A stretch of DNA of 64,000 bases, taken from the NCBI RefSeq assembly GCF_001652275.1, contig NZ_LVZK01000003.1:383672-447671 (forward strand), given 5' to 3'. The position numbers and the translations under genes were made by a program. This DNA comes from Peptidiphaga gingivicola. GTDB taxonomy: Bacteria > Actinomycetota > Actinomycetes > Actinomycetales > Actinomycetaceae. This document shows positions 1 through 23,271 of this stretch, one piece after another (position 1 is the first letter of the stretch; every line of letters starts with the position of its first letter). The notes under the pieces are model-generated. The model did not search any database. It saw only the letters and a program-made list of their open reading frames with translations, and was not told where the DNA came from.

Positions 1-21
1 CGCGGGCCGAAGGACAAATCG

Positions 22-1002
22 ATGAGCGGTCCCCACGTTTTCAATGGAAAAGGAAGCGATTGCGCCGATATTCTCAACCCGTCACGGCGTACACGCAAGC
101 CACCACGACGGAGGCGTCGGTTCTCTACGAAGACGGCAGGAGATATGCGAGGAGCACGCAAGGAAGGGAAAGCCATGGAGAGGAACCGCTCTCAACCGGG
201 CCGGTCTGCCCGCCGCGCCCGCTTCGGAAGGGAGGCCAAGGAGGAGACGGACACCATGGCCACGGACACCGCGATCAAGGGCGCCTGGGCCGGGGCCAGC
301 GCGAGCACCGCATGGGCAAAGAGCAAAAGGGGCGAGGGAACGCGAACTGGGGTGAGAGCGGCGGCAAGGGCAGGGGCGGGAGTCGGCGCTCCGAGCCGGG
401 ACTGGGTTCCGCTGATCGACGCCGCCACGACGCGCGTGGTCCCTCTCGGCTTCATCTTTTACCTCTTGGCAACCACTCTCTACCTGTTCTATTGGGGGCA
501 GCCGCTCGGCGCGACGGAGATGTGGGCTCGGACGCTTTTGTGGAACGTGTGGCCCTGGCTGGGGCTCATGTGTCTGGCGTTGACGTGGGCGTGGGCAAGC
601 CGCAAGGATCCGCGGCAGACGTGGCTGCGCCGTCTGATGAACCGCGCTCCCTTGTTCGGGAAAAAGGCGGCGATCCTGGGCGCTGCCCTCGGCTTAATGT
701 TCTTGTTGCAGGCGGCCGCCAACGACGTCGAACTGGCGCTGGATCTGCAGGCGGGCCCGCGAGGCGAGACCGGCGTGGTGTGCACGGAGTTCAAGGAGTG
801 GCCCTCGTATAAGAACGGAGACGCCAAGACCACGTTCGTCCTGCGCCACGCGAACGGGCGGGACGAAACTTTCGAGTTCATATCTCGCCTGGGCGTGTGG
901 GACGACGGCCCTCGCGGGTCGATCAAACGGCTGTGTTCCTCGCAAGAGTCCTTCACCCTTTGGCGGTGGGCAAGAACCGGAGTCATCGCCGACGTCGAAT
1001 GA
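22..1002 (+). CDS. Hypothetical membrane protein. The C-terminal two thirds contains several hydrophobic helices; the N-terminal Arg-rich part is probably not translated.
   Basis: Long ORF. Internal Met codons at 175 and 256 precede the hydrophobic segments (LGFIFYLLATTLYLFYW, LGLMCLALTWAWA). No recognisable family. Confidence 0.4.
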   Translation: MSGPHVFNGKGSDCADILNPSRRTRKPPRRRRRFSTKTAGDMRGARKEGKAMERNRSQPGRSARRARFGREAKEETDTMATDTAIKGAWAGASASTAWAKSKRGEGTRTGVRAAARAGAGVGAPSRDWVPLIDAATTRVVPLGFIFYLLATTLYLFYWGQPLGATEMWARTLLWNVWPWLGLMCLALTWAWASRKDPRQTWLRRLMNRAPLFGKKAAILGAALGLMFLLQAAANDVELALDLQAGPRGETGVVCTEFKEWPSYKNGDAKTTFVLRHANGRDETFEFISRLGVWDDGPRGSIKRLCSSQESFTLWRWARTGVIADVE

Positions 1003-1039
1003 CGGGGCCAACGACGCTCGCCGGGTGCGCCGTTGCGCA

Positions 1040-1140
1040 TGAACTCGCCGACGCGCACGAAACCAGAAGCGCACACAAACCAGCCGTCGCACGAGTTCAG
1101 AATCGCGGACAAACTTGGAATCGCGGACGAACTCGGAATC
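1040..1140. repeat. Degenerate tandem repeats of about 18 bp (units GAATCGCGGACAAACTTG / GAATCGCGGACGAACTCG / GAATCGCACACGAAAAGC and CGCACGAAACCAG-like units) leading into the 100-bp direct repeat
   Basis: Read directly from the sequence at 1040-1160. Confidence 0.6.
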
Positions 1141-1235
1141 GCACACGAAAAGCACCTTGGCACCATATAAGGACCAGATTTTAGACCTTGCAATGCGCGG
1201 CGGCGTTTTTCATGTGAAAGCGAAGGCCGACGCCG
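1136..1235. repeat. 100-bp direct repeat, copy A. It matches 4349-4448 with 97 of 100 identities and flanks the three-gene island.
   Basis: GAATCGCACACGAAAAGCACCTTGGCACC(A/G)TATAAGGACCA(G/A)ATTTT(A/G)GACCTTGCAATGCGCGGCGGCGTTTTTCATGTGAAAGCGAAGGCCGACGCCG occurs at both sites. It contains an imperfect inverted repeat GCGGCGGCG...CGACGCCG. Confidence 0.9.
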
Positions 1236-1322
1236 AACCTTGCCACCCCGATGCTCTGTCGCAATAAAGCTCCCCTGAAATCTCGAAGGCCAACGTCGGT
1301 ATGGCCCAGATGTCGAGCAGTC

Positions 1323-3044
1323 CTACTTGAAGCGAAAACCGAAGAGCCCACCGTCTTCGCCTGCATCCGTCAACACGGGATCGATGGCGTAATCCCGTCG
1401 ATCAAACCCTTCGGCCTCAGCTGCCTGCAAACGATCCGAGTTGAGCGTGACGATGTACTGGAATCCCACGTCGTCTGCGAGGCGGGCTCCGATATTGAGA
1501 CAGGAGGCGACTTGCCTGTCGTCCATGGAGTCGAAGAGGAGGCTGTCGTGCACAAGGATGCGCGGAGCCCGACCGGCCTTGATGGCCATGACGAGGCAGA
1601 CGACGTCAAGCAGGAAGGTCTTCACTCCGCGAATGCCGGACGAGGCATCGCCATCGATCTCAGGAGTGACTTTGAGTACCCCCTTGTTTGCGTCAATGAG
1701 CAAGGAAACATCGCGATCGTCGTAGATCTCTTCGCCAAGCTGTTGGAACAGGGAGATCGCCTCTTCGATAAATTCTTCCCGTTCGGCCATCTCGGTTCGG
1801 ACGCTGGCCTCCGCTTCAGCCGTGATTGAACGCAGGCGTAGCCCGGCGTCGTTCACCGACTGCACGAGCTCCAGCCTTCGCTCCAGATCCGCGACGGTAG
1901 AATCGACCTCCGCAAGTTCCCTTTCCGCATTGCGAAAAGTCTCGAGTGCCATTGAGTCGTTTAGAAGGTTCATCACATCCGCTCGGCGGCGGTCCAAGGC
2001 CCTACGCTCGGCCTCAATCGCTTTGAGCCTGTCAAGGACGCTGACACGCTCCGATTCAAGGTACAACCGACGATTGCGCACTACGGACGAATGGAAGTCC
2101 GCCACCTCTTCGAATCGTCGCGCTACGACGTCGGGCAGGACGATGCCGATCTCTACATACATCGTCTCTAGCTGCTTGGCCATGTCGGCACTAGAAGCCG
2201 TCGGCCTCTCTTCTTGCATTGCCAATTCGAGGTCGCGTTTGCGTTGCTCCAGCACAAGACCCTCGTCATTGAGATCCCTGATCGCCTGGGTAAGACGGTC
2301 GGCTTCAGCCTGATGTTCGGCATACTGCTCGTCGACGCGGAATCCCGACAGTTTCGATTCGAGGCGCAACCGGCGCTGGCGCAATTTAGCCAGGCGTGCA
2401 CGAAGCTCCGGCTCATTCATCGAAACGTTTCCAAGAGCTCCCTCGGCAATCGCCTTCTTGAGCGCTTTGCGATTCTTCTCAAGGGCGGAAGCCTCACCCG
2501 CCTTGGCGAGAATTTCTGGCGTGAACCCTAAAAGGTATCCGATTCTAGCCCCCGACTCCCATGCCGATTCTGCAGCAAACGTCTTAAGCGGATCGCCAAA
2601 ATAATCCCTGACCAGCTGACTGACAAGCTGACCGACCGTGGGGCGATTCGCATCCGCAGGAAGCCGAAATAGTTGGCCAACGTCAAGCTTCCAAGCGTCG
2701 ATACTTGTCGAGACGCCGTCGACGCGCACTTTCGTTTGAGGTTTGACCGCGCGTTCGATTCGCTTGACATCAGCAACGCCTCTCGTCAGGTCGTCGACGG
2801 CGTTCTCCATCTCAAGATCGCCCCAGAAAGAGAAATGAGCCAGCTCGGCGGATTTGAGACTGTCATCGAGCTTTCCGCCTAGGAGATAGCGAAGGATGCG
2901 GACAAAGCTTGTCTTCCCGGCGCCGTTTCTACTATCACCCAGTTTTGAGCCCTGAGTTTTATCCGCGAGCAGTACATTCATGCCTTCGTGGAAGCGCAGC
3001 GTCTTAAATCGGCAATCGGAGGAACCGAGTTCATACAGAAACAT
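1323..3044 (-). CDS. SMC/ABC-type ATPase with a long central coiled-coil insert. Putative ATPase component of a three-gene defence-like module (Lamassu LmuB-like or ABC-3C ATPase-like).
   Basis: 573 aa. Walker A motif (NGAGKTS) near the N-terminus. Residues about 180-420 are heptad-rich and Arg/Glu/Leu-rich (coiled coil). Walker B/D-loop ILVHDSLLFDSMD near the C-terminus. The start codon overlaps the stop of the upstream 84-aa gene. Confidence 0.8.
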   Translation of the reverse strand: MFLYELGSSDCRFKTLRFHEGMNVLLADKTQGSKLGDSRNGAGKTSFVRILRYLLGGKLDDSLKSAELAHFSFWGDLEMENAVDDLTRGVADVKRIERAVKPQTKVRVDGVSTSIDAWKLDVGQLFRLPADANRPTVGQLVSQLVRDYFGDPLKTFAAESAWESGARIGYLLGFTPEILAKAGEASALEKNRKALKKAIAEGALGNVSMNEPELRARLAKLRQRRLRLESKLSGFRVDEQYAEHQAEADRLTQAIRDLNDEGLVLEQRKRDLELAMQEERPTASSADMAKQLETMYVEIGIVLPDVVARRFEEVADFHSSVVRNRRLYLESERVSVLDRLKAIEAERRALDRRRADVMNLLNDSMALETFRNAERELAEVDSTVADLERRLELVQSVNDAGLRLRSITAEAEASVRTEMAEREEFIEEAISLFQQLGEEIYDDRDVSLLIDANKGVLKVTPEIDGDASSGIRGVKTFLLDVVCLVMAIKAGRAPRILVHDSLLFDSMDDRQVASCLNIGARLADDVGFQYIVTLNSDRLQAAEAEGFDRRDYAIDPVLTDAGEDGGLFGFRFK

Positions 3045-3285
3045 GGTGCCTCACCAACTGATCGGAGGCATTCCATGCGACGGCCCCGATGGCGAATAAC
3101 ATCGACAAAGCCATGGCAAACCAGTCGAAGGTGATGGCGCCTCCGGCATGTCCCGATCTCGTTTCTCGTGAGAATCGTTCCCAAAGCCCCGATACGGTGG
3201 TCGGCGAATCCAGCAGAGACAGAAGCTTCGCCCCCAGCGTCAGCAAAGCACGTTCGGGGCGTATCCCCTTAGTCGGAAGCAACAT
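3031..3285 (-). CDS. Small 84-aa protein, the middle gene of the three-gene module. Start and stop overlap both neighbouring genes.
   Basis: ORF positioned exactly between the two larger genes, with a 17-nt overlap upstream and a 14-nt overlap downstream. Hydrophobic C-terminal half (FDWFAMALSMLFAIGAVAW). Confidence 0.55.
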   Translation of the reverse strand: MLLPTKGIRPERALLTLGAKLLSLLDSPTTVSGLWERFSRETRSGHAGGAITFDWFAMALSMLFAIGAVAWNASDQLVRHHVSV

Positions 3286-4234
3286 CGCCAGTTTCTCCTA
3301 TAGAAAAGTCCGCGGGAGGCTCTTCGAAGATGTCACATGAATCGAAAAAGTATACGGTAACGGCGTAAACTGCGTTGGCGCGTTTCGTCCACATGTCGAA
3401 GTCTGGTCCGCCCAGAGCGACGTATACGCGCCGCACAATCTCACGCACATCGGACGTCACCCGACGTGCTTCCTCATAAATCTGACGAAAACGTCGAGCC
3501 TTCGCATCGCGAAGACCAGGATCGGGCTGCCCGGCGAACCACTTGTCAATACGTAGGGACAGAAGCCTCCCCTCATCAAACTCAGTCCTCGTCGTCCTCG
3601 GGAGCCTGTTGAAGTCCATCTTAGTTGAAGAGACAGGTCTGATGTCTTCGAGAAGGTGATCAACATCGCCACCCTCGACCCCTTCAAGCATTTCAATGAG
3701 CTCAACCAAATCGTCAAGCTCCACATTCTGCGCGTGCGGGGAACCCGGTATGATTTCATCCAGCTGATCCCAAGCTAGTTTACTCACGGCCTCCCACCAC
3801 AGATCGTCCGGAGCTTTCCAAAGCTCGAGAGCTATCGGACGTTTGGAGTCTGGACCGTGCTTCTTCCGCAACTTAAGCAGACTGTCAGTTGAGGCAGGGC
3901 CAAAAGACGCATTCGTCACAAACCGCCACACCCTGAACTCCGGCCAAAAGGCGTAAGCTCTAGCGAAGTCATCTTCCAGCTTCTTTTTGGTCTTCTGGTC
4001 GAGATTTGTTACTGCACGTTGTCCGTAGCAGGCGTAAAGGATGGACCCGTTTTCGGCGATTCCGTCACAGCCGCCGTCCCCGAGGCTGCCCATGGCCTCT
4101 GGATTGACGTAGTCTTTGTGCAGATGGGAGAGCACCTTGCTCACGTAGTTCTCAAACTCTTCGCCGGCGGCAAGGCACAGCTGATCGTGTCGCGCTCGAA
4201 ACCAGAACTTCCAAGCCGAATCGGGCAATGCCAT
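3269..4234 (-). CDS. Protein with an N-terminal Mrr-like restriction-endonuclease-fold motif. Putative effector of the three-gene module.
   Basis: 321 aa. GDGGCDGIAENGSILYACYGQ resembles the Mrr catalytic-core signature GDGGIDG...(V/I)QxK, but no Lys follows the Gln. First gene of the operon, with lower GC than the flanking DNA. Confidence 0.7.
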   Translation of the reverse strand: MALPDSAWKFWFRARHDQLCLAAGEEFENYVSKVLSHLHKDYVNPEAMGSLGDGGCDGIAENGSILYACYGQRAVTNLDQKTKKKLEDDFARAYAFWPEFRVWRFVTNASFGPASTDSLLKLRKKHGPDSKRPIALELWKAPDDLWWEAVSKLAWDQLDEIIPGSPHAQNVELDDLVELIEMLEGVEGGDVDHLLEDIRPVSSTKMDFNRLPRTTRTEFDEGRLLSLRIDKWFAGQPDPGLRDAKARRFRQIYEEARRVTSDVREIVRRVYVALGGPDFDMWTKRANAVYAVTVYFFDSCDIFEEPPADFSIGETGDVASD

Positions 4235-4348
4235 GACTCTCCTCCCTTCGATGACAGGTGTTCGACGCTCGAAGAATGACGCATCTGCGCCGAATCTGTT
4301 ACTGTTAAAATTTTACCCTACCAGGAGGCTTTCGAAGTAGTCGGCGTT

Positions 4349-4448
4349 GAATCGCACACGAAAAGCACCTTGGCACCGTATAAGGACCAAATTTTGGACC
4401 TTGCAATGCGCGGCGGCGTTTTTCATGTGAAAGCGAAGGCCGACGCCG
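4349..4448. repeat. 100-bp direct repeat, copy B (partner of 1136-1235)
   Basis: 97 of 100 identical to copy A. Lies 115 bp upstream of the operon start and about 195 bp from the tRNA-His 3' end. Confidence 0.9.
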
Positions 4449-4642
4449 CGCTTCACCAAGCAGCGACAAAGGACGCCGTCGCGTTTCGCTATGCAGCAAC
4501 GAAAGTCAATGCCAAGCTTTGCCATGCAAAATAGGGGTAGGAGCCGAGCCACAACGGAAGACCGGGCGATTATGCAATCGAGAATCTCGCATTCAGCCAG
4601 AAATCTCAGCCCAACTGACTTGGGGGGAATGCCCGACCGACG

Positions 4643-4719
4643 TGGGGTGGATGACGGGGCTCGAACCCGCGACCCCCTGGACCACAACCAGGTGCTCTAC
4701 CGACTGAGCTACAACCACC
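4643..4719 (-). tRNA. tRNA-His (anticodon GTG) with encoded G-1 and 3' CCA
   Basis: Reverse complement folds as a cloverleaf. GTGGTTG acceptor with G-1:C73, D-arm GCTCAGTCGGTAGAGC, anticodon loop TTGTGGT, T-arm GCGGGTTCGAGCCCCGT, CCA encoded. One U-U mismatch in the acceptor stem. Confidence 0.85.
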
Positions 4720-4861
4720 GTACGTGCCCCAGGCAGGGTCGCTCGCCTGGGGCACTGTTCAAGTGTAGCCTAGCTTCTGCGTCGTGACGAAACGCCCCCG
4801 GGTGATCCGCACCACCGCAGCGCAACAAACTGTCCGACGACGGCGCCGCGCTTCACGTCGC

Positions 4862-4925
4862 TCGAGAGCCGCTCCACCTCGCACGAGAGCCGCTCCACCT
4901 CGCACGAGAGCCGCTTCTTCGCGTC
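4862..4925. repeat. Tandem repeat, about 21 bp x3 (CGCACGAGAGCCGCTCCACCT)
   Basis: Visible in the sequence between tRNA-His and the ATP-grasp gene. Confidence 0.6.
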
Positions 4926-4954
4926 TCACGAGGGCGATGCGCTGGCATGCACCG

Positions 4955-5878
4955 TCACCAATGCACGCGCATGGCTATGGCGTCGGCGAACTTCTTCAGA
5001 TGCGTGGGGTTCTGCGAAAGGTAGAGCGATCCGTCGATGAGGGAGACCTCGAGGACGTAGAACTCGTGGGCGTCTTTGGGGCCGCCGCGGACGATGTCGA
5101 CGCGGTTGTACAGGAGCAGCTCGTCGCGGCCACACGTATCGACGATGTATCCGTGCACGATCTCGCGAATCTGCTCGCCCCAACGCCACTCCTGGGAGTT
5201 GGTCGCGTCCGAGCGGACCACTTCCTCGTGGAACTCCTCGGTGGAGCGGAAGCTGGGGTGCAGCATCGGATCCTTCTCGACCTGGTACGAAGCTAGTCCG
5301 TTGAGGTAGATGAGCGAGGTCTCCCCCGATCGGTCGATCTGGTCGAGGTAGCGCTGCACCATGACGGGGCGGCCGTTTTCGAGCTCGCTCATCGCATGGC
5401 GTATGGCCTCGCCGCGGGAGTTCGGGTCGATCGCCGTATACCTCCCGGTCCCGCGCCCGCCCGAGGAAATGGCCGGCTTGACCACGAAATCCCCGTACGC
5501 GGGGAACCGAGTGTGCAGCTGATGCTTCGTCAGATTCTGCTCGGGCTCGAGCCACACCGTCGGAATGACCGGCAGACCGCGGGCCTCCAGCTCGCGCAGG
5601 TAGTGCTTGTCCGAATTCCAGTCCATGACCTGCGCCTGGTTGAGGATCCGCGGAATAGAACGCGCCCAGGCGCGGAACTCCTCGCGCTGGGCCGCATAAT
5701 CGCGCACGGAGCGGACGACCACGGTTCCCGCCTGCGACCAGTCGACGTCGGGGTCGTTCCACACGGAGATCCTCGGTTCGAGCCCGCGCTCCCGCAGGGC
5801 GTCGGGAAGGCCCTGCTCGTCGGCGTCAAGGTCTGGCAATTCGGCGCACGTTGCCAAGGTCACGATCGGATCAGACAC
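4955..5878 (-). CDS. ATP-grasp fold protein (RimK/glutathione-synthetase-like)
   Basis: 307 aa. Central Gly-rich motif (VVKPAISSGGRGTGRYTAI) in an ATP-grasp-like layout. High-GC codon usage. Confidence 0.65.
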   Translation of the reverse strand: MSDPIVTLATCAELPDLDADEQGLPDALRERGLEPRISVWNDPDVDWSQAGTVVVRSVRDYAAQREEFRAWARSIPRILNQAQVMDWNSDKHYLRELEARGLPVIPTVWLEPEQNLTKHQLHTRFPAYGDFVVKPAISSGGRGTGRYTAIDPNSRGEAIRHAMSELENGRPVMVQRYLDQIDRSGETSLIYLNGLASYQVEKDPMLHPSFRSTEEFHEEVVRSDATNSQEWRWGEQIREIVHGYIVDTCGRDELLLYNRVDIVRGGPKDAHEFYVLEVSLIDGSLYLSQNPTHLKKFADAIAMRVHW

Positions 5879-6127
5879 GCAGCCAACTTTACCCGATGGC
5901 GATTGCGCGGATCACGCCCAAGCTCAAGTCAATCAAATGCGAACTCGGGCGAAACCCGTACGAATTCGGCCCAATCGCATACACGGCATCCGAAACGCGT
6001 GCCCAAGCGGCCCCGAGGGCTGCGACGCCTCGGGGCCGGGCCGCATCGCGGGCCGCACTTCGTCGCATCCGACGTCGTCCCGGAAAACGAAAAGCCCCGC
6101 AGCCTTGCGGCCGCGGAGCCCTGTTCG

Positions 6128-6200
<73 letters not shown>

Positions 6201-6355
6201 TTGCAAAGCTAGATTACTCAGGCGCCCGCCGCCGCGCAAGCCGGCCTCGTGTGATCTAGCTCCACCGCGCCGCCCTGAGGCGGCCTTGGCCGCAGACGAA
6301 GAGTCCGTGACGCCGTTGACTCAATATGCCCGTCCGCCCGGCTGCCTGAATGCCT

Positions 6356-6442
6356 CTCGCCCAGACCCGCACGGCACCCCTCGCCACTCTTGCTGGGGCT
6401 GACGTTCCGTCGTCCTCTCGCCCAGACCCGCACGGCACCCCT
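6356..6442. repeat. Two 27-bp direct repeats (CTCGCCCAGACCCGCACGGCACCCCTC) spaced 60 bp apart, upstream of a TetR gene
   Basis: Exact duplicates at 6356-6382 and 6416-6442. Confidence 0.8.
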
Positions 6443-6482
6443 CCTCACCTCCTTTCTCAGTTCGCCTTCTGTACCAACCACT

Positions 6483-7064
6483 ATGTACAATCTTGGCATG
6501 GACACACGAACCCGGCTGGTGAACGTCGCGCAAGACCTCCTGTGGGAGCGCGGGTACGCAGCGACCAGCTCCAAAGAAATCCTCAACCGCGCCAACGTGG
6601 GCCAGGGAAGCATGTACCACCACTTCTCGGGCAAGCGAGACCTGGCTGCCGCGGCCTTGGAACAGAGCGCCGCGGCGATGCGCGCCGAGGCAGAGGCCCT
6701 TCTGGCCGCAGACGGAACGTCCGTCGAGCGCGTGATCTCCTACCTCGAACGGCAGCGAGACTCGCTGCGGGGCTGCCGCATGGGACGTATGACGTACGAC
6801 GCCGACGTGCTGGCAACCCCGGAGCTTCTCCGCCCGGTCGCCGAGACTCTCGGGTGGATCGTAGGCGCTCTCGCCGACGTCGTCCGCCAGGGGATCGAAG
6901 CCAGGGAATTCCGGCACGAGACAGATCCCGAGCAACTCGCCTCGATGGTCGTCGCGACCGTCCAAGGCGGATATGTGCTCGCGCGAGCCCAGCAGAATCC
7001 AGCGGCCTTCGACGCCGCAGTCGCCGGCGCGGCGTCGCTCATACGCCAACAGGCCGGCGGCTGA
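6483..7064 (+). CDS. TetR/AcrR family transcriptional regulator
   Basis: N-terminal helix-turn-helix TRLVNVAQDLLWERGYAATSSKEILNRANVGQGSMYHHF. Start at Met 6483 (or 6498) within ORF 6390..7064. Confidence 0.75.
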   Translation: MYNLGMDTRTRLVNVAQDLLWERGYAATSSKEILNRANVGQGSMYHHFSGKRDLAAAALEQSAAAMRAEAEALLAADGTSVERVISYLERQRDSLRGCRMGRMTYDADVLATPELLRPVAETLGWIVGALADVVRQGIEAREFRHETDPEQLASMVVATVQGGYVLARAQQNPAAFDAAVAGAASLIRQQAGG

Positions 7065-7134
7065 GCCTCGGGCGCCGCCTCGCCGGCGTCGGCTCGCAAT
7101 TGACCGAAACACAAGCAACGAAGGAACAGAACCG

Positions 7135-7692
7135 ATGTATGCAATGCAATACCAGATCGCTTTGCCCGCCGACTACGACATGGACGTCATTCGCAAGAGG
7201 GTCCGAGCGACGGGCCGTCTCATGGACGGGTTTCCCGGACTGGAGTTCAAGGCTTACCTCGTACAAGAAAAGGCCGAGGGCGCGCCGCGGAACGCCTACG
7301 CCCCCTTTTATGTGTGGCGAGACACCGCCGGCATGCGCAGTTTCTGCTGGGGCGAGCCCGGCTACTCGTCGATCGTCCGGGACTTCGGGCGCCATTCCAT
7401 TCAAGACTGGACCGTGCACAAGATCGCTCGCGGCCCGTCTTCCTACGCGAGCGCACGCAGCCTGTCCTTTCAGACCGTTTCGCTTCCGGACGACGTCGCC
7501 CCCTCCGCCTGCGTCGAAAACCTCTCGGCCCCATTCCTCTCGGAAGAGGACGGCGAGACCGTCGCACGAGTCGCCGCCGTCGACGTGACCGCATGGAACC
7601 TCGTCTTGGTCGAGCTGAGCGCCGCACACGCCGAACAGAGCGCCGCAGGCCGGACCGTCTACGAAGTCCTTCACGTCTCGGAAGGCTCGTGA
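7135..7692 (+). CDS. Hypothetical 185-aa protein
   Basis: ATG at 7135 preceded by an AAGGA ribosome-binding site 9 nt upstream. Followed by a perfect hairpin terminator. Confidence 0.7.
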   Translation: MYAMQYQIALPADYDMDVIRKRVRATGRLMDGFPGLEFKAYLVQEKAEGAPRNAYAPFYVWRDTAGMRSFCWGEPGYSSIVRDFGRHSIQDWTVHKIARGPSSYASARSLSFQTVSLPDDVAPSACVENLSAPFLSEEDGETVARVAAVDVTAWNLVLVELSAAHAEQSAAGRTVYEVLHVSEGS

Positions 7693-7723
7693 CCGAACAA
7701 GGTCCGAAGAAAATCGAAAGGCC

Positions 7724-7750
7724 CGCAGTCTTTCGACTGCGGGCCTGACC
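7724..7750. terminator. Bidirectional hairpin terminator GGCCCGCAGTC-TTTC-GACTGCGGGCC
   Basis: Perfect 11-bp stem, between convergent gene 7135..7692 (+) and tRNA-Lys (-). Confidence 0.7.
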
Positions 7751-7752
7751 CG

Positions 7753-7824
7753 TACACCGCCTGGGACTCGAACCCAGAACCCACTGATTAAGAGTCAGTT
7801 GCTCTACCATTGAGCTAGCGGTGC
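7753..7824 (-). tRNA. tRNA-Lys (anticodon CTT), copy 2
   Basis: Same cloverleaf as copy 1, with differences in the acceptor stem (GCACCGC) and D-loop (AATGGTA). Confidence 0.85.
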
Positions 7825-7872
7825 GGATTCCAACTTTACCCGCCGATCGCGGCGCAGGCAAACGCCGATCCC

Positions 7873-10842
7873 GTGGCGCGCGACACCGTCGCCGCACTCG
7901 CCCTTCCGACGCCGGCGCCGCAGGAGCCGCGGGAAACCGACGTCGCCGTTCCGATGCCGTCCTTGTGGCAATCTTGTGGGGTGACGAACGAAAAGCCCGA
8001 CGCCCCAGCCCTCAACCTTGCGCTTGACAGGCTCGAAGACGCCTTCGGATTCACGCCCGACGGCGACGCCGTCTACGAGGAGTTCTCGAACTGGGCCGAA
8101 TCGACGGGACGCCCCCTCTACCCCCACCAGGAAGAGGCTCTTCTGGCTGCCGTTTCAGGCGACAACCTGATCGTTTCCACGCCGACGGGATCGGGCAAGT
8201 CGATGGTCGCGCTCGCGGCGATCTTCACCGCCCTCGCACACGGGCGGAGCGCCTACTACACGGCACCGCTCAAAGCCCTCGTCTCGGAAAAGTTCTTCGA
8301 GCTCATCGCGGCCTTCGGCGCGCACAACGTGGGCATGGTCACGGGTGACTCGTCCATCAACGCCGGGGCGCCGATCGTGTGCGCAACGGCGGAAATCGTC
8401 GCGAACATCGCGTTGCGCGAGGGCGACGCCGCGGACATCGGCGTGCTCATCGCCGACGAGTTCCACTTCTACGGCGATCCCCAGCGCGGGTGGGCATGGC
8501 AGGTCCCCCTCCTGGAGCTCGCCTCGACCCAGCACGTCCTCCTCTCCGCCACTCTCGGCGACACGTCCTTCCTCGCGGAAGACCTGAGCAAACGCACCGG
8601 CAGGAACACATCCGTCGTCGACCGCGCCGAGCGCCCCGTCCCCCTCGCGTTCTCCTACTCGCGCGAGCCCCTCGGCGAAGTCGTCCTCGAACTCGTCCAC
8701 ACCCACCGCGCCCCCGTCTACGTGGTCCACTTCTCACAAAAGGAGGCCGTCAGCCAAGCGCAGGCCCTGCTTCCGATCAACCTGACGACGAAGGCCGAGC
8801 GCGAGCTCATAGCCAAGGAGATCGGCGATTTCCGCTTCGGCCCCGGCTTCGGAAAAACGCTGTCCAAACTGTTGCGATCGGGCATCGGCGTCCACCACGC
8901 GGGGCTGCTCCCCCGCTACCGCCGGCTCGTCGAAAGGCTCACGCAAGCCGGACGGCTCAAGGTCGTCTGCGGCACGGACACCCTCGGCGTCGGGATCAAC
9001 GTCCCCATTCGAACCGTGCTCCTGACGTCGCTGTCGAAGTTCGACGGAACCCGTTCACGCCACCTTTCGGCCCGCGAGTTCCACCAGATCGCGGGCCGGG
9101 CGGGCAGGGCCGGGTTCGACACGGCGGGCGACGTCGTCGTCCAAGCCCCCGAGTACGAGATCGAAAACGCGAAAGCCCTGGAAAAAGCCGCCGGGGACCC
9201 CAAGAAGCTCAAGAAACTCGTTCGAAAGAAAGCCCCCGAAGGCGTGGTGCTGTGGGGAGAGAAGACGCTCGCGCACCTGCAGAACGCGGCGCCGGAGAAG
9301 CTGGCCTCGCAGATGCGCGTCAACCACGCCATGATCCTCAACCTTCTGCAACGCCCCGGGGATTCGGTGGCCGCCGCCGTCCGTCTGCTGACGGACAACC
9401 ACGAGCCCAAAACCGAGTCGAACCCCCTGCTCAGAAGGGCGGTCGAAATCTACGAAACGCTCCGTTCGGCGGGGGTCCTCGTCCACCACGACGTCCAATG
9501 GCAGGCCGCCCACCCCGGCGAGTCCGCGGTCGATTTCGCTCGCGAGGTTCCGAGCGACTTCGCCCTCAACTCGCCTCTGGCTCCCTTCGCGCTTGCGGCC
9601 CTCGACCTGCTCGAACGCGAGTCCCCCGACTATCCGCTCGACGTCGTCTCGGTGGTAGAGGCCGTCCAAGAGAATCCGATGCAGGTGCTCTATGCGCAGG
9701 AGCGCGCAGCGCGCGGCGAGGCGATCGGGCGGATGAAGGCCGCCGGAATGGGCTACGAGGAGCGGATGGCCGAGGCGGACTCCATCACGTGGCCGCGGCC
9801 CCTCGCGGAGCTTTTGGAGGGGGCGTTGGCCGTCTACCGTCAGACGAATCCATGGGTGGACGGCTACGACCTCACGCCGAAATCGATCGTGCGGGAAATG
9901 GTGGAGCACGCCGAGACGTTCTCCGAGTTCGTCTCACGCTACGACCTGGCGCGCAGCGAGGGCGTGCTTTTGCGCTATCTCTCGGACGTCTACAAGGCCC
10001 TGCGGCAGACCGTGCCGCTCGAGGCCCGCACGGACGAGGTCGACGAGATCACGCAGTGGCTGGGGACTCTCGTGCGCTCGGTCGACTCCTCGCTCCTCGA
10101 CGAATGGGAGGCCCTAGCAGACGGCAGGGTGACGCCTGAGGAGGCCGCGCGCATGTCCGGCGAGGCCGAAGGCGGGCTCGACGAGGTCGCCTTCGGGGCG
10201 GACGAGAACGGCGCCGCTGCCTTTACCCGCAACCGCCACGCCTTCAAAGCCGCGGTCCGCAACGCAGCGTTTCGCAGGGTCGAGGCCGTTCAATTCGAGG
10301 ACCTCGAATCCTTGGACCGCCTCGACGGCGAGCCCGCGTGGACGGAATCCAGCCGGTTCGGGGACGCCGGCAGCCAAGTCGGGGACGAGAGCGGCGAGGC
10401 CGAGGCTGTGGGCGGCGCGGCCGGGGCCACACGCAGCGAAGCACAAGACGCACGCAGCGAAGCAGGGGACGAAGGAAGCCGGGCGACGCTCGCAAACCGC
10501 GAAGCGGGGCCCGTATGGGACGGCGACGCCTGGATGGACGCCACCGATCCGTACTTCGACGTCTACGAGAGCGTCGGCATCGACTCCCACGCCCGCGGAA
10601 ACGAGTTCTTCCGAGTACAAGAACAGGCCGATGCCGCAGACCTCGCCGAGACGGGCGTGCCCCGCGAGGTCGCCGAAGCCCTCGTCGAGGGAAAGCAACC
10701 CGGCCGCCTGTGGATCGTCACGCAGGTTTTCGACGACGGCGAAGGCGACGGCGGCTGGGGCTTCCGCGCATTCGTCGACCTCGACGAATGCGACGAGCTG
10801 GGTGCGGCGAAGCTTCGGGTCGTCCACGTCGGCGAGCTGTGA
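7873..10842 (+). CDS. DEAD/DEAH-box superfamily-2 helicase with a long C-terminal extension (Lhr / DUF3516-type)
   Basis: Motif I TPTGSGKS, DEAD-like ADEFH, motif VI QIAGRAGRAG. The start codon is uncertain (candidates 7873 or 7951). Confidence 0.8.
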   Translation: MARDTVAALALPTPAPQEPRETDVAVPMPSLWQSCGVTNEKPDAPALNLALDRLEDAFGFTPDGDAVYEEFSNWAESTGRPLYPHQEEALLAAVSGDNLIVSTPTGSGKSMVALAAIFTALAHGRSAYYTAPLKALVSEKFFELIAAFGAHNVGMVTGDSSINAGAPIVCATAEIVANIALREGDAADIGVLIADEFHFYGDPQRGWAWQVPLLELASTQHVLLSATLGDTSFLAEDLSKRTGRNTSVVDRAERPVPLAFSYSREPLGEVVLELVHTHRAPVYVVHFSQKEAVSQAQALLPINLTTKAERELIAKEIGDFRFGPGFGKTLSKLLRSGIGVHHAGLLPRYRRLVERLTQAGRLKVVCGTDTLGVGINVPIRTVLLTSLSKFDGTRSRHLSAREFHQIAGRAGRAGFDTAGDVVVQAPEYEIENAKALEKAAGDPKKLKKLVRKKAPEGVVLWGEKTLAHLQNAAPEKLASQMRVNHAMILNLLQRPGDSVAAAVRLLTDNHEPKTESNPLLRRAVEIYETLRSAGVLVHHDVQWQAAHPGESAVDFAREVPSDFALNSPLAPFALAALDLLERESPDYPLDVVSVVEAVQENPMQVLYAQERAARGEAIGRMKAAGMGYEERMAEADSITWPRPLAELLEGALAVYRQTNPWVDGYDLTPKSIVREMVEHAETFSEFVSRYDLARSEGVLLRYLSDVYKALRQTVPLEARTDEVDEITQWLGTLVRSVDSSLLDEWEALADGRVTPEEAARMSGEAEGGLDEVAFGADENGAAAFTRNRHAFKAAVRNAAFRRVEAVQFEDLESLDRLDGEPAWTESSRFGDAGSQVGDESGEAEAVGGAAGATRSEAQDARSEAGDEGSRATLANREAGPVWDGDAWMDATDPYFDVYESVGIDSHARGNEFFRVQEQADAADLAETGVPREVAEALVEGKQPGRLWIVTQVFDDGEGDGGWGFRAFVDLDECDELGAAKLRVVHVGEL

Positions 10843-18655: not shown

Positions 18656-19603
18656 TTACTCTTCGTCGTCCAAAGACTCCAAGGCAAGCGCGTGGTTCAT
18701 GCCGCCCGCGATGACCTTGCGCTGGTAGTCCCACAGAGAGACGACGTTCACCTGGAGGTCTTCCTCCTCGTCGACCTCGAAAAGCTTGTGGATGTCGCGC
18801 ACCGACCGCTCGATGACCTTCAGTTCGAATATTCGGTCGCGGACCCGGCGTCGGGTTGTCGCGGCAATGTCGCTCATGTCTTCGGCGACGACGTCGAAGG
18901 CGATCGGTATCGTCACGTCCGCCTTGTAGAGATCGGCGACGTCGTAGACGAAGGAACGCTCGTGACCTGTGTGAACGAATCCCAGCCCCGGCGAGCATCC
19001 CAGTGAAACGACGACGGCGTGGATCACCCCGTATAGTGCGGCGTGCGCGGCAGACAGCGCCTGATTGATCGGATCTGAGGCGTCGAAATCGTCGTACTCG
19101 TACTCGCGGCGCTTCCACGGCACCCCTGTACGCTTCGAGTTCTCACGGTAGACGGAACGAATGCGGGCGCCTTCCCGTCCCCGCAGCTGTTGCATTGTCA
19201 ATCCGTCAACGTCTTCGCCTGCAAAACGCATCGTGTACATTTTCCTCGCAACCGCCAGCCGCTTTTGCGGAGAGGAGACACGAGCCGCTTGCTCCACGAG
19301 CAGCCTGCTCGACGTCGCCAGGGACCTGCCGTGAGCGTAGTAGCGAACCCCGCGCTCGCCGACCCACACTGCGGTGGTGCCGCACTCGCCCAAAAGGCAC
19401 ATCGCCTGGTGGCTCACCGAGGTCCCCGGGCCCAGCAGCACCGCCAAAAGCGACGCAGCCGGAACGCGAACCAAGCCCTTGTCGTCGCGCGCCGTCACAG
19501 CGCCGTCCTCACGATGGACGACGCAATGCTCCAAGTAGAGAAAGGACATCCGGTCGGCTGCGCGAGGAAGCGCCGTGACGGGAACGGGAAGCAGGCGCGC
19601 CAT
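18656..19603 (-). CDS. cas1: CRISPR-associated endonuclease Cas1 (type I-E)
   Basis: 315 aa, conserved Cas1 I-E core, immediately upstream of cas2. Confidence 0.85.
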   Translation of the reverse strand: MARLLPVPVTALPRAADRMSFLYLEHCVVHREDGAVTARDDKGLVRVPAASLLAVLLGPGTSVSHQAMCLLGECGTTAVWVGERGVRYYAHGRSLATSSRLLVEQAARVSSPQKRLAVARKMYTMRFAGEDVDGLTMQQLRGREGARIRSVYRENSKRTGVPWKRREYEYDDFDASDPINQALSAAHAALYGVIHAVVVSLGCSPGLGFVHTGHERSFVYDVADLYKADVTIPIAFDVVAEDMSDIAATTRRRVRDRIFELKVIERSVRDIHKLFEVDEEEDLQVNVVSLWDYQRKVIAGGMNHALALESLDDEE

Positions 19604-19607
19604 CGCT

Positions 19608-20540
19608 TTACTCCCTCGGGAGCGCCAAGGTCATGAGACCGCAGCCGTATGCCTTCGACGGGCCGAGCCCGTTGATGAGCATCTGGCGAAAGGCCCTGAC
19701 GTCCTCGATTCGGAGAATGCCTTCGTAGACGACGCGTCCAATCGTAACCCTGCCTGACTTCTGGGTCTCGCGATCCTTCCTGTCGAACACAGGTTTTTCG
19801 CGCCGGATAACCAAGAGCGAGGCGCGATCATTCGGATCATCGTCTTGCTCGGCTGACCCTTCGAGCGCCTCGGCAGCAACGACGTTTTGCTCGCGTGCAG
19901 CGGCGCCTCCCAGTTTGCCGTTCTCCCCCAATTCGACGCGCTCGGCCCGGCCATCCCCGCTGTGCCTCGTGAGCCCCGGCCCGGCGGACGCCATCGGGAT
20001 CGAGAACCCCTGCTTCTCAGCGCGCCTGAGCAGCCAGTCTCTCTGCTGCCTCGCAGTCACGTGTCCGTACCGTTTGCCCCGCTTGTCCGGCCCCCTGTTC
20101 TCGTTGTGAACGGGATTCGCCGCGAGCCTGAATGCCCACGTTTGACCTTCGGCGAGCCGGGAAAGGAAACCTTCATAATCGAGCGTGCGAGCCAGCTGCG
20201 ACGAAGTCGCGTCCGCCTCAATTTGCGACATGTCCGGACGCATGGGCGAGAGCACGTACAGGGCGACGCCGAAGCCCCCCTGGTCGACCCGCCACAGCAC
20301 ACGTCCAGCCGCAGAAGTTTCTGCGCGGGCCGACGACGCTTCAACACCAATCGACGTCGGGGTTTCGGCATGTGCAGGCAAATCCTCCGACGTGCTTCCG
20401 GCCGGATCTCCCCGGTCGCCGTCGATACTCCGGCCGAGATCGCACGCCTTCATGACGACCGCGTGCATCACCTGCGGCGAGCCGAGCAGCCTTCTCGCGA
20501 ACCGACGCCGCGGATCGAGTTCTATCTTCGTCAGATACAT
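19608..20540 (-). CDS. cas6e: Cas6e/CasE crRNA endoribonuclease with two low-complexity insertions
   Basis: Starts MYLTKIELD (E. coli CasE starts MYLSKVII) and ends GLGPSKAYGCGLMTLA (E. coli GIGPAKSMGCGLLSLA). It is 310 aa, compared with about 200 aa typical. Confidence 0.8.
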   Translation of the reverse strand: MYLTKIELDPRRRFARRLLGSPQVMHAVVMKACDLGRSIDGDRGDPAGSTSEDLPAHAETPTSIGVEASSARAETSAAGRVLWRVDQGGFGVALYVLSPMRPDMSQIEADATSSQLARTLDYEGFLSRLAEGQTWAFRLAANPVHNENRGPDKRGKRYGHVTARQQRDWLLRRAEKQGFSIPMASAGPGLTRHSGDGRAERVELGENGKLGGAAAREQNVVAAEALEGSAEQDDDPNDRASLLVIRREKPVFDRKDRETQKSGRVTIGRVVYEGILRIEDVRAFRQMLINGLGPSKAYGCGLMTLALPRE

Positions 20541-20556
20541 CTTCCACCTCGCATGG

Positions 20557-21402
20557 CTAATTCTCCTCAGACAGCTCCGCCATCGGATTATGATGGTCGG
20601 GCCCGGTTTCCCCAGACGCATCGCCAAGGCCCATGTCCAAGCCGACTTCGGAATCACGCCCTGGTACAACGTCTAGTTCCGCCATCGGGTCATGATGGTC
20701 TTCGCCCTGCCCAGAGCGCGTCGCCGAGCCTTCCTGCAAGGCTTCGTCTTTCACTCTCAACATGTGCCGCTCGATATCCCGGAAGGAATACTCACGTCGT
20801 CGCGGATCAAAGGAAAGTGGAACATCGCGACTGCCCCGAAGGTCGTTTGTGTGCTCTCCTTCGGGCACAGCGTCTTTGTCAAGGAGAATCTCGACCTCCC
20901 CGATGTCGGGATTGCGTTTTCGGTACCAATACGAAGCCAGCCAGGGCTCATCTTTAAGAGCCTCGAGAAGATCCGCATCGCGCAGACCAAGCGAAACGGG
21001 AAGAGCCGGCGGGCACGAACGCCGTCCAAGATAGAGAGGGAAAGAAGGGTGCCGCACAAAGTGGTCGAGCCGCTCGATCACTGCGCTCTCCCCCTCTATT
21101 CCTGCCAAAAAAACCGCATCGGAAAGGTAGTAGCGGTTGGACAGCGGCATCGATTTGGAACCGTCGAGCGTGTGCGCCGTATGAAAGTCGCGCACCACGG
21201 TTCCCGGTTGGTCCTTTCGCACGCCAAAACGCAGCGTCAACAGGTCCTCGATTGGGTCAGTGCGCCGCCTGCCGGCAGCGGCGGCCAGCATGCCGAGAAT
21301 TCCGCTTTTTGAGGGGGCGAGTTCTGTAGCGCGCACCGTGAATCGGGATTTGACGCCCCAGGCCTGCAACGGGCCCGCGAGCCGCAAGAGCAGTACCGCC
21401 AT
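20557..21402 (-). CDS. cas5: Cas5e/CasD
   Basis: MAVLLLRLAGPLQAWG N-terminal signature. C-terminal tandem HH(D/N)PMAEL repeat. Confidence 0.8.
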   Translation of the reverse strand: MAVLLLRLAGPLQAWGVKSRFTVRATELAPSKSGILGMLAAAAGRRRTDPIEDLLTLRFGVRKDQPGTVVRDFHTAHTLDGSKSMPLSNRYYLSDAVFLAGIEGESAVIERLDHFVRHPSFPLYLGRRSCPPALPVSLGLRDADLLEALKDEPWLASYWYRKRNPDIGEVEILLDKDAVPEGEHTNDLRGSRDVPLSFDPRRREYSFRDIERHMLRVKDEALQEGSATRSGQGEDHHDPMAELDVVPGRDSEVGLDMGLGDASGETGPDHHNPMAELSEEN

Positions 21403-21405
21403 CGC

Positions 21406-22545: not shown

Positions 22546-22594
22546 TTTCTTCCCCTATTTTAGGTTGTTTTGTGGCGCTTTTAACGCCCGAGTT

Positions 22595-23269
22595 TTATTT
22601 GGCATCCGAGGACGGGCTGGAGCTAGCAGGAGCTTCGACGTCGACGGACTCGGCCTCGTTGCCATCTGGTTTCCGAAGATTGTAGAAGTCACGCGACCAT
22701 CTGCGTCTGACTTTCTTATCACCACCCGGACGTCGGAACATCACGAGGTCGTCGGCAAAGGCAGCGTAGTCAAAACCGATGTCTTTCGATCGAAGGAGCT
22801 GGACGAAAGAACGGAGGTGGCTGCGCAGCTCGTCAACAGTCGAAGCGGTGACCAAAGCGTTGAAGCGACTGCGAGCGGAAGGGTTCTCATTTTCCGTTCC
22901 GATCAACTCGCGGGCAGCTCTTCCAAATCCGAAGCCTGGCTTATGCATCGGGCCGGACCGCGATTGCTGGTGAATCGCGTACAGAGTCATGGCGATATGA
23001 ACGGCCGTCTCTTCCGGCGTCGGAGCGTCGGAAGCGCTGTCGGGAACATCATTCACATGCGTATAGTCCCAGATGTCGGCGATCTCGCCTGGATCCGCGT
23101 TTACTCCTCGGCGCAATTTCGCGAGAGCTGCGCGAGCCGACGCTTTGTCGGTCAAGACGCCTTTTTGCAAGTCTTCAATGCGGCGGCCGACGGCAACAGC
23201 AGTCTTGCTCAAGTATCGCCTCCTAGAGGGAGACACATTTTTCGCGGGTTGAGTTTCTATGGCATTCAT
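22595..23269 (-). CDS. cse2: Cse2/CasB, Cascade small subunit
   Basis: 224 aa, alpha-helical, positioned between cse1 and cas7. Confidence 0.75.
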   Translation of the reverse strand: MNAIETQPAKNVSPSRRRYLSKTAVAVGRRIEDLQKGVLTDKASARAALAKLRRGVNADPGEIADIWDYTHVNDVPDSASDAPTPEETAVHIAMTLYAIHQQSRSGPMHKPGFGFGRAARELIGTENENPSARSRFNALVTASTVDELRSHLRSFVQLLRSKDIGFDYAAFADDLVMFRRPGGDKKVRRRWSRDFYNLRKPDGNEAESVDVEAPASSSPSSDAK

Positions 23270-23271
23270 TG

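What the first reader, a model, noticed from the sequence alone, without database searches (positions are those of the whole stretch)
1136..1235. 100-bp direct repeats (97% identical) bracketing the three-gene module
Copies at 1136-1235 and 4349-4448 differ at only 3 positions. They sit just outside the operon, 88 bp past the ATPase gene stop and 115 bp upstream of the first gene. They contain an imperfect inverted repeat (GCGGCGGCG...CGACGCCG). Copy A is preceded by a tract of degenerate 18-bp tandem units related to its first 20 bp. They could be attL/attR of an integrase-less islet, a MITE-like element, or a recombination hotspot that allows cassette exchange of defence genes.
Basis: seen in the sequence. 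Interest (0 to 1): 0.6.

Follow-up and report, generated by a model that had tools for sequence, protein, structure and literature searches.

The report
Hairpin repeats bracketing a defence cassette
Two near-identical 100-base copies of a hairpin-forming sequence mark the exact edges of a 3.1-kb, three-gene candidate anti-phage cassette; related strains lack the cassette and carry exactly one copy at the same spot, so this is a small islet with no integrase, and the flanking repeats are the likely route by which it is lost and perhaps regained.

Summary
Positions 1136-1235 and 4349-4448 are 97/100 identical, have sharp edges, and have no third copy in the window. They bracket a 3,113-bp, lower-GC cassette encoding an ABC-3C (PADLOC PDC-M68, Lamassu-like) operon on the minus strand.

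Fourteen contigs from related Actinomycetaceae (nearest named: an uncultured Ancrocorticia MAG) show the uninterrupted site with exactly one copy. Eight further assemblies show the same occupied structure with identical junctions. The 23-nt core of the repeat occurs at no other locus, so it is not REP- or MITE-like.

New findings:
- The 100-mer is an 85-nt imperfect hairpin that is stable only as minus-strand RNA.
- The cassette has diverged about as much as its flanking genes between two clades (~92%), so the insertion is old.
- Occupied and empty alleles occur on the same flank haplotypes, so precise loss or gain has recurred.
- The two copies evolve in concert.
- No recombinase lies within about 9 kb.

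Most likely the repeats act as attL/attR-like substrates for precise deletion (and possibly re-entry) by homologous recombination. How the 100-bp duplication first arose is unresolved. Interest is moderate.

The parts
1136..1235 (-). Repeat copy A (attL-like in window orientation). It lies downstream of the operon on the transcribed minus strand. Its hairpin stem-loop spans 1139-1223.
   Evidence: repeat; hairpin, minus-strand bias; covariance-model hit, 118 bits
4349..4448 (-). Repeat copy B (attR-like). It lies between tRNA-His and the operon. Its hairpin spans 4352-4436.
   Evidence: 124 bits
1236..4348 (-). The 3,113-bp insert, absent from empty-site relatives. GC is about 55% against about 65% in the flanks.
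1323..3044 (-). ABC-3C ATPase, 573 aa (DUF2326 plus CTD10; PADLOC PDC-M68B, E 5.5e-107).
3031..3285 (-). ABC-3C middle component MC6, 84 aa.
3269..4234 (-). First gene of the operon, 321 aa. The C-terminal part is CTD10; the N-terminal part resembles LmuA weakly (presumed effector).
1100..1142 (.). 18-nt tandem units (GAATCGCGGACGAACTCG) related to the foot of the hairpin. The number of copies varies between strains.
4449..4642 (.). Native spacer between the hairpin site and tRNA-His. It contains a degenerate repeat of the tRNA 3' end (about 4617-4627), which is where a BREX island begins in other strains.
4643..4718 (-). tRNA-His (GTG).
22..1002 (+). Conserved left-flank gene with no Pfam family. 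It converges on the site and is longer (407-aa ORF) in L010.

Best explanation
**What it is.** The 100-mer is a locus-specific sequence in the intergenic region downstream of tRNA-His in a group of oral or host-associated Actinomycetaceae. Read on the minus strand, the strand of tRNA-His and of the operon, it folds as RNA into an 85-nt imperfect hairpin. In the window, a 3,113-bp cassette carrying an ABC-3C defence operon sits exactly between two copies of it. The copies are therefore the boundaries of a small islet without an integrase.

**What is shown.**
- Empty sites carry one copy, and the junctions are identical in all occupied genomes examined.
- The cassette has diverged about as much as the flanking genes between two clades, so the insertion is old.
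- Occupied and empty alleles occur on the same flank haplotypes.
- The two copies within a clade are more alike than the corresponding copies in different clades.

**What is inferred.**
- The repeats are now substrates for Campbell-type recombination. Crossing-over in the roughly 46-nt stretch that is invariant between the two copies deletes the cassette precisely and leaves one copy. The reverse reaction, or homologous import from an occupied strain, restores it.
- RecA-dependent homologous recombination is the most economical agent, and repeated exchange homogenises the copies.
- As RNA, the hairpin probably acts as a terminator or 3'-end stabiliser. One copy would then close the tRNA-His transcript ahead of the cassette and the other would close the operon.

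**What is not explained.** How the first 100-bp duplication arose.
For: **Empty sites.** L002/L003, L009 (an Ancrocorticia MAG), L011, L013, L015, L016, L018, L019, L020, L022, L023, L025 and L026 each carry one copy, with flanks continuous with window 3-1235 and with 4349 onwards.

**Occupied sites.** L010, L012, L014, L017, L024+L021 and L037-L039 have the junctions ...GAC(G/C)CCG|AACCTTGCC and ...GTCGG(C/T)GTT|GAATCGC.

**Not dispersed.** The 23-nt core gives 1 hit in the species-representative genomes, 17 metagenome loci that are all at this locus, and 0 viral hits. The covariance model finds only the known copies in 314 kb.

**Old insertion.** Between clade W (the window's clade) and clade D (L024+L021, L037-L039), the module is 92.2% identical. 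The left gene is 91-93% and the ATP-grasp gene about 95%.

**Recurrent events.** L012/L022, L010+L017/L013 and WIN/L015 are occupied/empty sets that share flank haplotypes. In each case the single copy equals copy A through the variable 5' half.

**Concerted evolution.** A and B differ at 0-8 positions within clade W and 8-11 within clade D, against 12-17 between clades.

**Hairpin.** RNA minimum free energy is -37.7 and -38.8 kcal/mol on the minus strand (z -3.7 and -3.5), against -26 and -32.7 on the plus strand. Of 435 pair cells, 97.7% are standard pairs on the minus strand against 84.4% on the plus strand.

**No recombinase.** None is found in the cassette or within about 9 kb on either side.
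Against: No excised circle or empty/occupied mixture was observed directly; the assemblies cannot show one.

Homologous and site-specific recombination predict the same mosaics here. All informative crossovers fall in the longest identical stretch, which both models allow.

The model does not explain how a native 100-bp segment first came to lie on both sides of foreign DNA.

The RNA role is unproven. There is no U-tract and no terminator call at the hairpin. Only one pair shows a compensatory change, and the covariation score does not exceed the shuffles. There is no Rfam family.

It is also not settled whether the hairpin was there before the cassette or arrived with it. No outgroup with an alignable site was available; the hairpin is absent from L004, L006 and L007, but those loci are not collinear.
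Confidence: 0.6

Rival explanations
1. True att sites of a site-specific recombinase acting in trans. The cassette is a decayed or non-autonomous integrative element (CIME-like, or a satellite of an actinomycete integrative element). It excises as a 3,213-bp circle and re-enters at the hairpin, with strand exchange at the apex quasi-palindrome (AAGGACC-AAATTTT-GGACCTT, 1169-1189 / 4382-4402).
For: All occupied genomes examined, in two clades about 8% apart, have junctions at the same position. The apex has 7-nt inverted arms around a 7-nt spacer, the geometry of a tyrosine-recombinase core (sequence). The strain-to-strain variants within clade W cluster there. A 100-bp identity segment is within the range I recall for actinomycete elements (about 43-112 bp; own knowledge). 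In clade D, copy B travels with the module and copy A with the chromosome.
Against: There is no integrase in the cassette or within about 9 kb. No related element carrying an integrase was found at this site in about 30 loci. The site does not overlap a tRNA. The 100-mer accompanies none of the homologous modules in other genera. The cassette has diverged in step with the host, so there is no sign of recent horizontal spread. It matches nothing in the plasmid or phage collections.
Confidence: 0.15
2. A one-off long target-site duplication. The cassette entered through staggered breaks at the two feet of the palindrome, or through a replication template switch that copied the hairpin twice. This duplicated exactly the hairpin unit, in the way a CRISPR repeat is duplicated at spacer insertion. 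All later variation is deletion and homologous exchange.
For: The duplicated unit coincides with the structured element: the hairpin occupies minus-strand positions 13-97 of 100. The left edge lies in the same register (|GAATCGC) as the junctions of the adjacent 18-nt tandem units, which suggests repeated breakage or slippage there. The hairpin is native to this locus and is not associated with the module elsewhere. A single old event fits the matching divergence of cassette and flanks.
Against: I know of no bacterial insertion mechanism that gives a 100-bp duplication (own knowledge). As single-stranded DNA the hairpin is no more stable than shuffled sequence (z -0.9 and +0.1), which weakens any model based on a cruciform or DNA hairpin. 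The insert has no terminal inverted repeats, and there is no transposase. In clade D the two copies differ at 8-11 positions and copy B shares derived changes across strains. That is allowed only if the event is very old.
Confidence: 0.12
3. The hairpin came in with the cassette, and every single copy is a scar. The ancestral site had no 100-mer, and 'empty' sites are solo remnants left after recombination between the two terminal repeats, like solo LTRs.
For: The hairpin is found only in the species group that also holds the cassette, and it is absent from the syntenic ATP-grasp loci of the nearest other genera. The insertion predates the split of the clades. Every empty site has exactly one copy.
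Against: Homologous modules in other Actinomycetales carry no such hairpin. The adjacent 18-nt units derived from the hairpin foot are chromosomal and vary in number independently of occupancy. This model still needs a mechanism that put two copies on the element.
Confidence: 0.1
4. A generic dispersed repeat (REP- or MITE-like), or an assembly artefact.
For: The sequence is palindromic and about 100 bp long, as many REP and MITE elements are.
Against: It occurs at a single locus in every collection searched. Eight independent assemblies reproduce the two-copy structure, and a k=31 unitig from a further sequencing run breaks exactly where the shared 52-mer predicts.
Confidence: 0.03

Closest known systems
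[quoted passage not shown]
   Same: An insert with no integrase, bounded by direct repeats. Empty sites carry one copy. The cargo is adaptive genes.
   Different: There is no sign that it derives from an ICE or IME, and no related integrase-bearing element was seen at this site. The repeat is a 100-bp intergenic hairpin, not the end of a tRNA or other target gene. The insert holds three intact genes and about 200 nt of non-coding DNA, with no gene remnants.
Att identity segments of actinomycete integrative elements and phages (pSAM2, SLP1 and L5 type; own knowledge, not tested here)
   Same: The host phylum is the same, and the attL/attR identity is tens to about 110 bp long. The site lies next to a tRNA gene.
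   Different: Those segments overlap the tRNA 3' end, and the elements encode their own integrase. Here the repeat lies 194 nt from tRNA-His. The tRNA-proximal entry point is used by a different island (BREX) in other strains.
Integron gene cassettes and their attC sites
   Same: A cassette of co-oriented genes is bounded by imperfect palindromes of about 100 nt with a strand bias. A circle carrying one site would be the predicted intermediate.
   Different: There are no RYYYAAC / GTTRRRY core sites (read), no intI or attI nearby, and only one cassette rather than an array. The hairpin is stable as RNA but not as single-stranded DNA. Integrons are not known in Actinobacteria (own knowledge).
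Deletion between direct repeats (solo-LTR-type loss) and presence/absence polymorphism of defence genes at hotspots
   Same: Precise loss leaves one repeat. Both alleles persist within a species. The neighbourhood holds other defence islands (BREX in other strains; type I-E cas genes 14 kb away).
   Different: The repeat here is a duplicated native structured element with exact, conserved junctions. Most defence hotspots described are bounded by core genes or carry integrases.
Lamassu / DdmABC (an ABC-3C system)
   Same: The cargo is an ABC-3C operon with effector, middle component and SMC-like ATPase. DdmABC was reported to be triggered by palindromic, hairpin-forming DNA (bioRxiv 10.1101/2022.11.18.517080).
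   Different: The subfamily differs: CTD10 / MC6 / DUF2326 here, CTD7 / MC3 in DdmABC. The hairpin is also present in strains without the cassette, so there is no evidence of a functional link.

Membership tests
Site-specifically integrated island / CIME | Direct repeats at both ends, and a single copy at the unoccupied site | tested here: met
Site-specifically integrated island / CIME | An integrase in the element, or (for a CIME) a related integrase-bearing element that uses the same att site | tested here: not met
   The three genes are ABC-3C components. There is no recombinase within about 9 kb on either side. No other element occupies this site in about 30 loci. The rest of the genome was not available.
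Site-specifically integrated island / CIME | An excised circular form with a joined att site | not testable with these tools
   This needs reads or PCR. The assemblies, and the 3,221-nt Logan unitig, fit either form.
Integron cassette / attC | An imperfect palindrome of about 57-141 nt that folds as a hairpin | tested here: inconclusive
   There is a long hairpin of 29 pairs. It is significant only as minus-strand RNA, not as single-stranded DNA.
Integron cassette / attC | R''/R' core sites (RYYYAAC ... GTTRRRY), with the crossover at G|TT | tested here: not met
   Neither motif occurs at the feet of the hairpin on either strand (sequences).
Integron cassette / attC | intI, attI and an array of cassettes | tested here: not met
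   There is one cassette, and the neighbours are housekeeping genes. The covariance model finds no further sites in the window.
REP / MITE-like dispersed repeat | Many copies scattered in the genome | tested here: not met
   The exact-core scans would miss diverged copies, and no complete genome of this species was available.
Transposon target-site duplication | A short (2-15 bp) duplication, terminal inverted repeats and a transposase | tested here: not met
   The duplication is 100 bp. The insert ends (AACCTTGCC... and ...GTCGGCGTT) are not inverted repeats. No transposase is present.
Intrinsic transcription terminator | A GC-rich stem-loop followed by a U-tract, in the sense of transcription | tested here: inconclusive
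   There is a stable minus-strand hairpin, but no U-tract and no call by the scan. Terminators without a U-tract are reported in Actinobacteria (own knowledge). Mapping of 3' ends is needed.
ABC-3C defence system (the cargo) | An ABC/SMC-like ATPase, a middle component, and an effector that shares a CTD with the ATPase | tested here: met
   DUF2326 + CTD10, MC6, and CTD10; PDC-M68A/B. Defence activity itself was not tested.

The most novel reading that the evidence does not exclude
The hairpin may be a dedicated recombination site. On this reading the cassette is a non-autonomous mobile unit that leaves as a 3,213-bp circle and re-enters at the hairpin, through a recombinase encoded elsewhere that recognises the structure or its apex core. 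Alternatively, the cassette was first inserted by staggered cleavage at the two feet of the palindrome. Either way this would be an integron-like or CRISPR-repeat-like system for inserting defence genes, in a phylum where none is known.
Probability: 0.08. Interest if true: 0.75.

Novelty: new variant of a known kind. Interest (0 to 1): 0.4.

Why it matters
This is an unusually clean natural experiment. A minimal defence cassette (3,113 bp, three genes, its own non-coding flanks) exists as a presence/absence polymorphism in two clades about 8% apart. The junctions are exact, it carries no mobility gene, and matched empty alleles are available.

That gives three practical uses:
- It defines the functional unit of a candidate system (PDC-M68 / ABC-3C, CTD10-MC6) for cloning and testing.
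- It provides a PCR-testable case for asking whether 100-bp repeats and host recombination alone can keep defence genes mobile within a species.
- It poses a concrete open question: how was a structured 100-bp native element duplicated around foreign DNA?

If the answer is a hairpin-directed enzyme, that would be new. If it is homologous recombination, the case is ordinary but instructive.

Tried and rejected
- **Dispersed repeat.** Rejected by scans of the genome, metagenome and viral collections with a 23-nt core conserved between clades, and by a covariance model run over 314 kb.
- **Known RNA family.** No Rfam match in 1-9000 other than the tRNAs.
- **A promoter in the repeat driving the operon.** By eye I noted TTGCAA-18 nt-TATACG on the minus strand. 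The consensus scan reports nothing there, and the hexamers lie inside the hairpin stem, so I dropped it.
- **parS-like or dif-like site.** Only a weak resemblance by eye, and not conserved in the other clade. Dropped.
- **A small ORF through the hairpin and the 18-mers, reading (RVRPRF)n.** The changes between clades are mostly non-synonymous (my reading). Probably not coding.
- **A duplication originally longer than 100 bp.** The outer flanks show no collinear similarity.
- **Cassette boundaries shared with homologous modules.** DNA similarity to the 78%-identical modules stops at the coding region, and those modules have no flanking repeats.
- **The many 3.1-3.3-kb Logan contigs of homologues reflecting repeat-bounded modules.** The one I examined (L045) is not bounded by the module. 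L001's length is explained by a k=31 unitig breaking inside the shared 52-mer.
- **Carriage on a plasmid or phage.** No blastn match. The only viral relative of the ATPase is 50% identical.
- **An outgroup to decide whether the hairpin is native or a scar.** The nearest other genera are not collinear at this site.

Full report
**1. The observation**

The window holds two 100-nt direct repeats, 1136-1235 and 4349-4448. They are 97/100 identical and 3213 nt apart start to start. The mismatches are at 1165/4378, 1177/4390 and 1183/4396, and the neighbouring 60 nt on each side are unrelated, so the edges are sharp.

Sub-patterns allowed up to 3 mismatches hit only these two places, against none in shuffles. 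Neither blastn nor a covariance model finds a third copy in the 64 kb. TRF confirms the 18-nt tandem units at 1100-1142, which run into copy A.

**2. What lies between the copies**

Three overlapping minus-strand genes lie between them:
- 3269-4234, 321 aa, with a CTD10 domain.
- 3031-3285, 84 aa, middle component MC6.
- 1323-3044, 573 aa, DUF2326 plus CTD10.

This is the architecture of an ABC-three-component system. The best PADLOC model is the candidate system PDC-M68, with weak matches to Lamassu LmuA and LmuB.

GC falls from about 65% to about 55% over roughly 1050-4650. tRNA-His lies on the minus strand at 4643-4718, 194 nt beyond copy B. Homologues of the neighbouring ATP-grasp gene place the organism in the Actinomycetaceae.

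**3. The empty site**

A contig with a 98%-identical ATP-grasp protein (L002) aligns to window 4349-4887 and to 188-1235. The two alignments overlap by exactly 100 nt, which means one copy and no cassette.

I then scanned with a 23-nt core that is conserved between L002 and the window:
- The species-representative genomes gave one hit, an uncultured Ancrocorticia MAG that is also an empty site.
- The viral collection gave none.
- The metagenome collection gave 17 loci, all in this same chromosomal context.

Adding loci reached through the cassette's ATPase gives these totals:
- Occupied, with both junctions read: the window, L010, L012, L014, L017, L024+L021, L037, L038 and L039.
- Empty, with one copy: L002, L003, L009, L011, L013, L015, L016, L018, L019, L020, L022, L023, L025 and L026.
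- L046 and L048 carry all three cassette genes beside the same flanking genes, and L047 carries the ATPase with the left flank; I did not inspect their repeats.

The junctions are the same everywhere...GAC(G/C)CCG|AACCTTGCC and ...GTCGG(C/T)GTT|GAATCGC.

**4. What the 100-mer is**

On the minus strand it folds as RNA into one long imperfect hairpin: -37.7 and -38.8 kcal/mol, z -3.7 and -3.5, with none of 200 shuffles as stable. The plus strand is unremarkable.

Across 15 distinct copies, the 29 pairs are kept in 97.7% of cells on the minus strand but only 84.4% on the plus strand. The difference comes from 65 G·U cells. Only one pair shows a two-sided compensatory change, and the covariation score is within the range of the shuffles. 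The structure is therefore conserved and strand-biased, but it is not proven by covariation.

Folded as single-stranded DNA, it is no better than shuffled sequence. There is no Rfam family, and neither a terminator nor a promoter is called there.

The simplest reading is an RNA element on the strand of tRNA-His and the operon, acting as a terminator or a 3'-end stabiliser. This is an inference.

**5. History of the insertion**

The flanks define two groups:
- Clade W: the window, L010, L012, L014 and L017 (occupied); L013, L015 and L022 (empty).
- A second group in which the occupied clade-D loci (L024+L021, L037-L039) sit among empty ones (L019, L002, L009 and others).

*The insertion is old.* Between clades W and D the cassette is 92.2% identical. 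The left gene is 91-93% and the ATP-grasp gene about 95%. The cassette has diverged with its host, so it has not spread recently.

*Loss or gain has recurred.* Within clade W, occupied and empty alleles share flank haplotypes, including diagnostic indels next to the repeat. The sets are L012/L022, L010+L017/L013 and WIN/L015. In each case the single copy equals copy A through the variable 5' half. That places the crossover in the roughly 46 nt that are identical between the copies.

*The two copies have been exchanging sequence.*
- Copies A and B differ at 0-8 positions within clade W and 8-11 within clade D, but at 12-17 between clades.
- In clade D, copy B is nearly the same in two backgrounds (2 differences). 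Copy A follows the chromosome: in L024+L021 it differs from the single copy of the empty relative L019 at one position.

This pattern is what Campbell-type exchange predicts. Linkage combined with homologous recombination predicts it too.

**6. Mechanism and open points**

There is no recombinase in the cassette or within about 9 kb on either side. The neighbours are a TetR regulator, an MFS transporter, a Ser/Thr kinase, PadR, an ABC transporter and PfkB on the left, and an ATP-grasp gene, two tRNA-Lys genes, a DUF4865 gene and a DEAD helicase on the right.

Homologous modules in other Actinomycetales sit in many contexts without this hairpin and, with one exception, without flanking repeats. 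The 100-mer is therefore local to this site and is not part of a travelling element family. Nothing matches in the plasmid or phage collections.

I conclude that the repeats now work as attL/attR-like substrates for precise deletion and possible re-entry. Host homologous recombination is the most likely agent (confidence about 0.6 for the whole statement, and about 0.95 for the boundary and empty-site part).

Three alternatives remain open: a trans-acting site-specific recombinase, a one-off long target duplication at the feet of the palindrome, and a 'solo scar' origin of the single copies. The data do not separate them. The origin of the first duplication is unexplained.

**7. Comparison with known systems**

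[quoted passage not shown] It also works like loss between direct repeats of the solo-LTR type. It fails the membership tests for CIME (no integrase-bearing relative), integron attC (no core sites, no intI, no array), MITE/REP (single locus) and transposon target duplication (100 bp, no terminal inverted repeats).

One lead has no support so far. Lamassu/DdmABC, another ABC-3C system, was reported to be triggered by palindromic hairpin DNA. Here, however, the hairpin is also present in strains without the cassette.

**8. Verdict**

The feature is real and well defined. It is a variant of a known kind, a repeat-bounded islet with no integrase, with an unusual repeat: a whole 100-nt structured native element. 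Interest is moderate (0.4). The high-novelty reading, hairpin-directed cassette insertion, is not excluded but is unlikely (about 0.08).

Noticed in passing
L019 1-7860 and L023 948-5699; junction corresponds to window ~4620-4627: Strains with an empty hairpin site carry a BREX island (PglZ, BrxL, BrxA, an AAA_13 ATPase). It starts right after TTGGGGTG, a short repeat of the tRNA-His 3' end. The region downstream of tRNA-His therefore has two separate entry points for defence genes, about 170 nt apart.
   Followed up: partly
window 18656-28061 (-): Type I-E cas genes: Cas1, a CRISPR_assoc family protein, Cas7 (CT1975), Cse1 and Cas3. Their GC3 is lower than that of the neighbouring genes. I did not locate a CRISPR array.
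   Followed up: partly
window 6127-6200 and 7752-7824 (-): Two tRNA-Lys(CTT) genes lie 1.6 kb apart and share 59 nt at 98% identity. A DUF4865 gene (6973-7692) lies between them. This could be another old insertion at a tRNA.
   Followed up: no
L036 (Corynebacterium phocae CP009249) 3687-3834 and 8146-8293: 148-nt direct repeats, 94% identical, bracket a homologous ABC-3C module plus a Transposase_mut fragment. They are unrelated in sequence to the 100-mer and may be ends of an insertion sequence.
   Followed up: partly
L027/L028/L031 ~8196-8206; L030 ~7804-7814: A module block that is 99.9% identical in at least four contexts ends after ...GGACCACCCC(T/A)G. Each of the four contexts aligned continues with a different near-perfect hairpin. 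In L027 a large serine recombinase gene follows.
   Followed up: no
window 4849-4915: A 21-nt tandem repeat, 3.2 copies at 93% matches, lies just upstream of tRNA-His.
   Followed up: no
window 1040-1235 (-), and the same region in other loci: A minus-strand reading frame starting in the hairpin would translate the 18-nt units as (RVRPRF)n. A gene caller also placed a 51-aa plus-strand ORF at about 1015-1170 (L046). The substitution pattern between clades looks non-coding.
   Followed up: partly
repeat offsets 25-51 (window 1160-1186 / 4373-4399): Within clade W, all but one of the variable positions in the 100-mer cluster around the apex quasi-palindrome (AAGGACC-N7-GGACCTT); the exception is offset 98. 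Two linked haplotypes (A..G..A and G..A..G) are each found in copy A, in copy B and in empty sites.
   Followed up: partly
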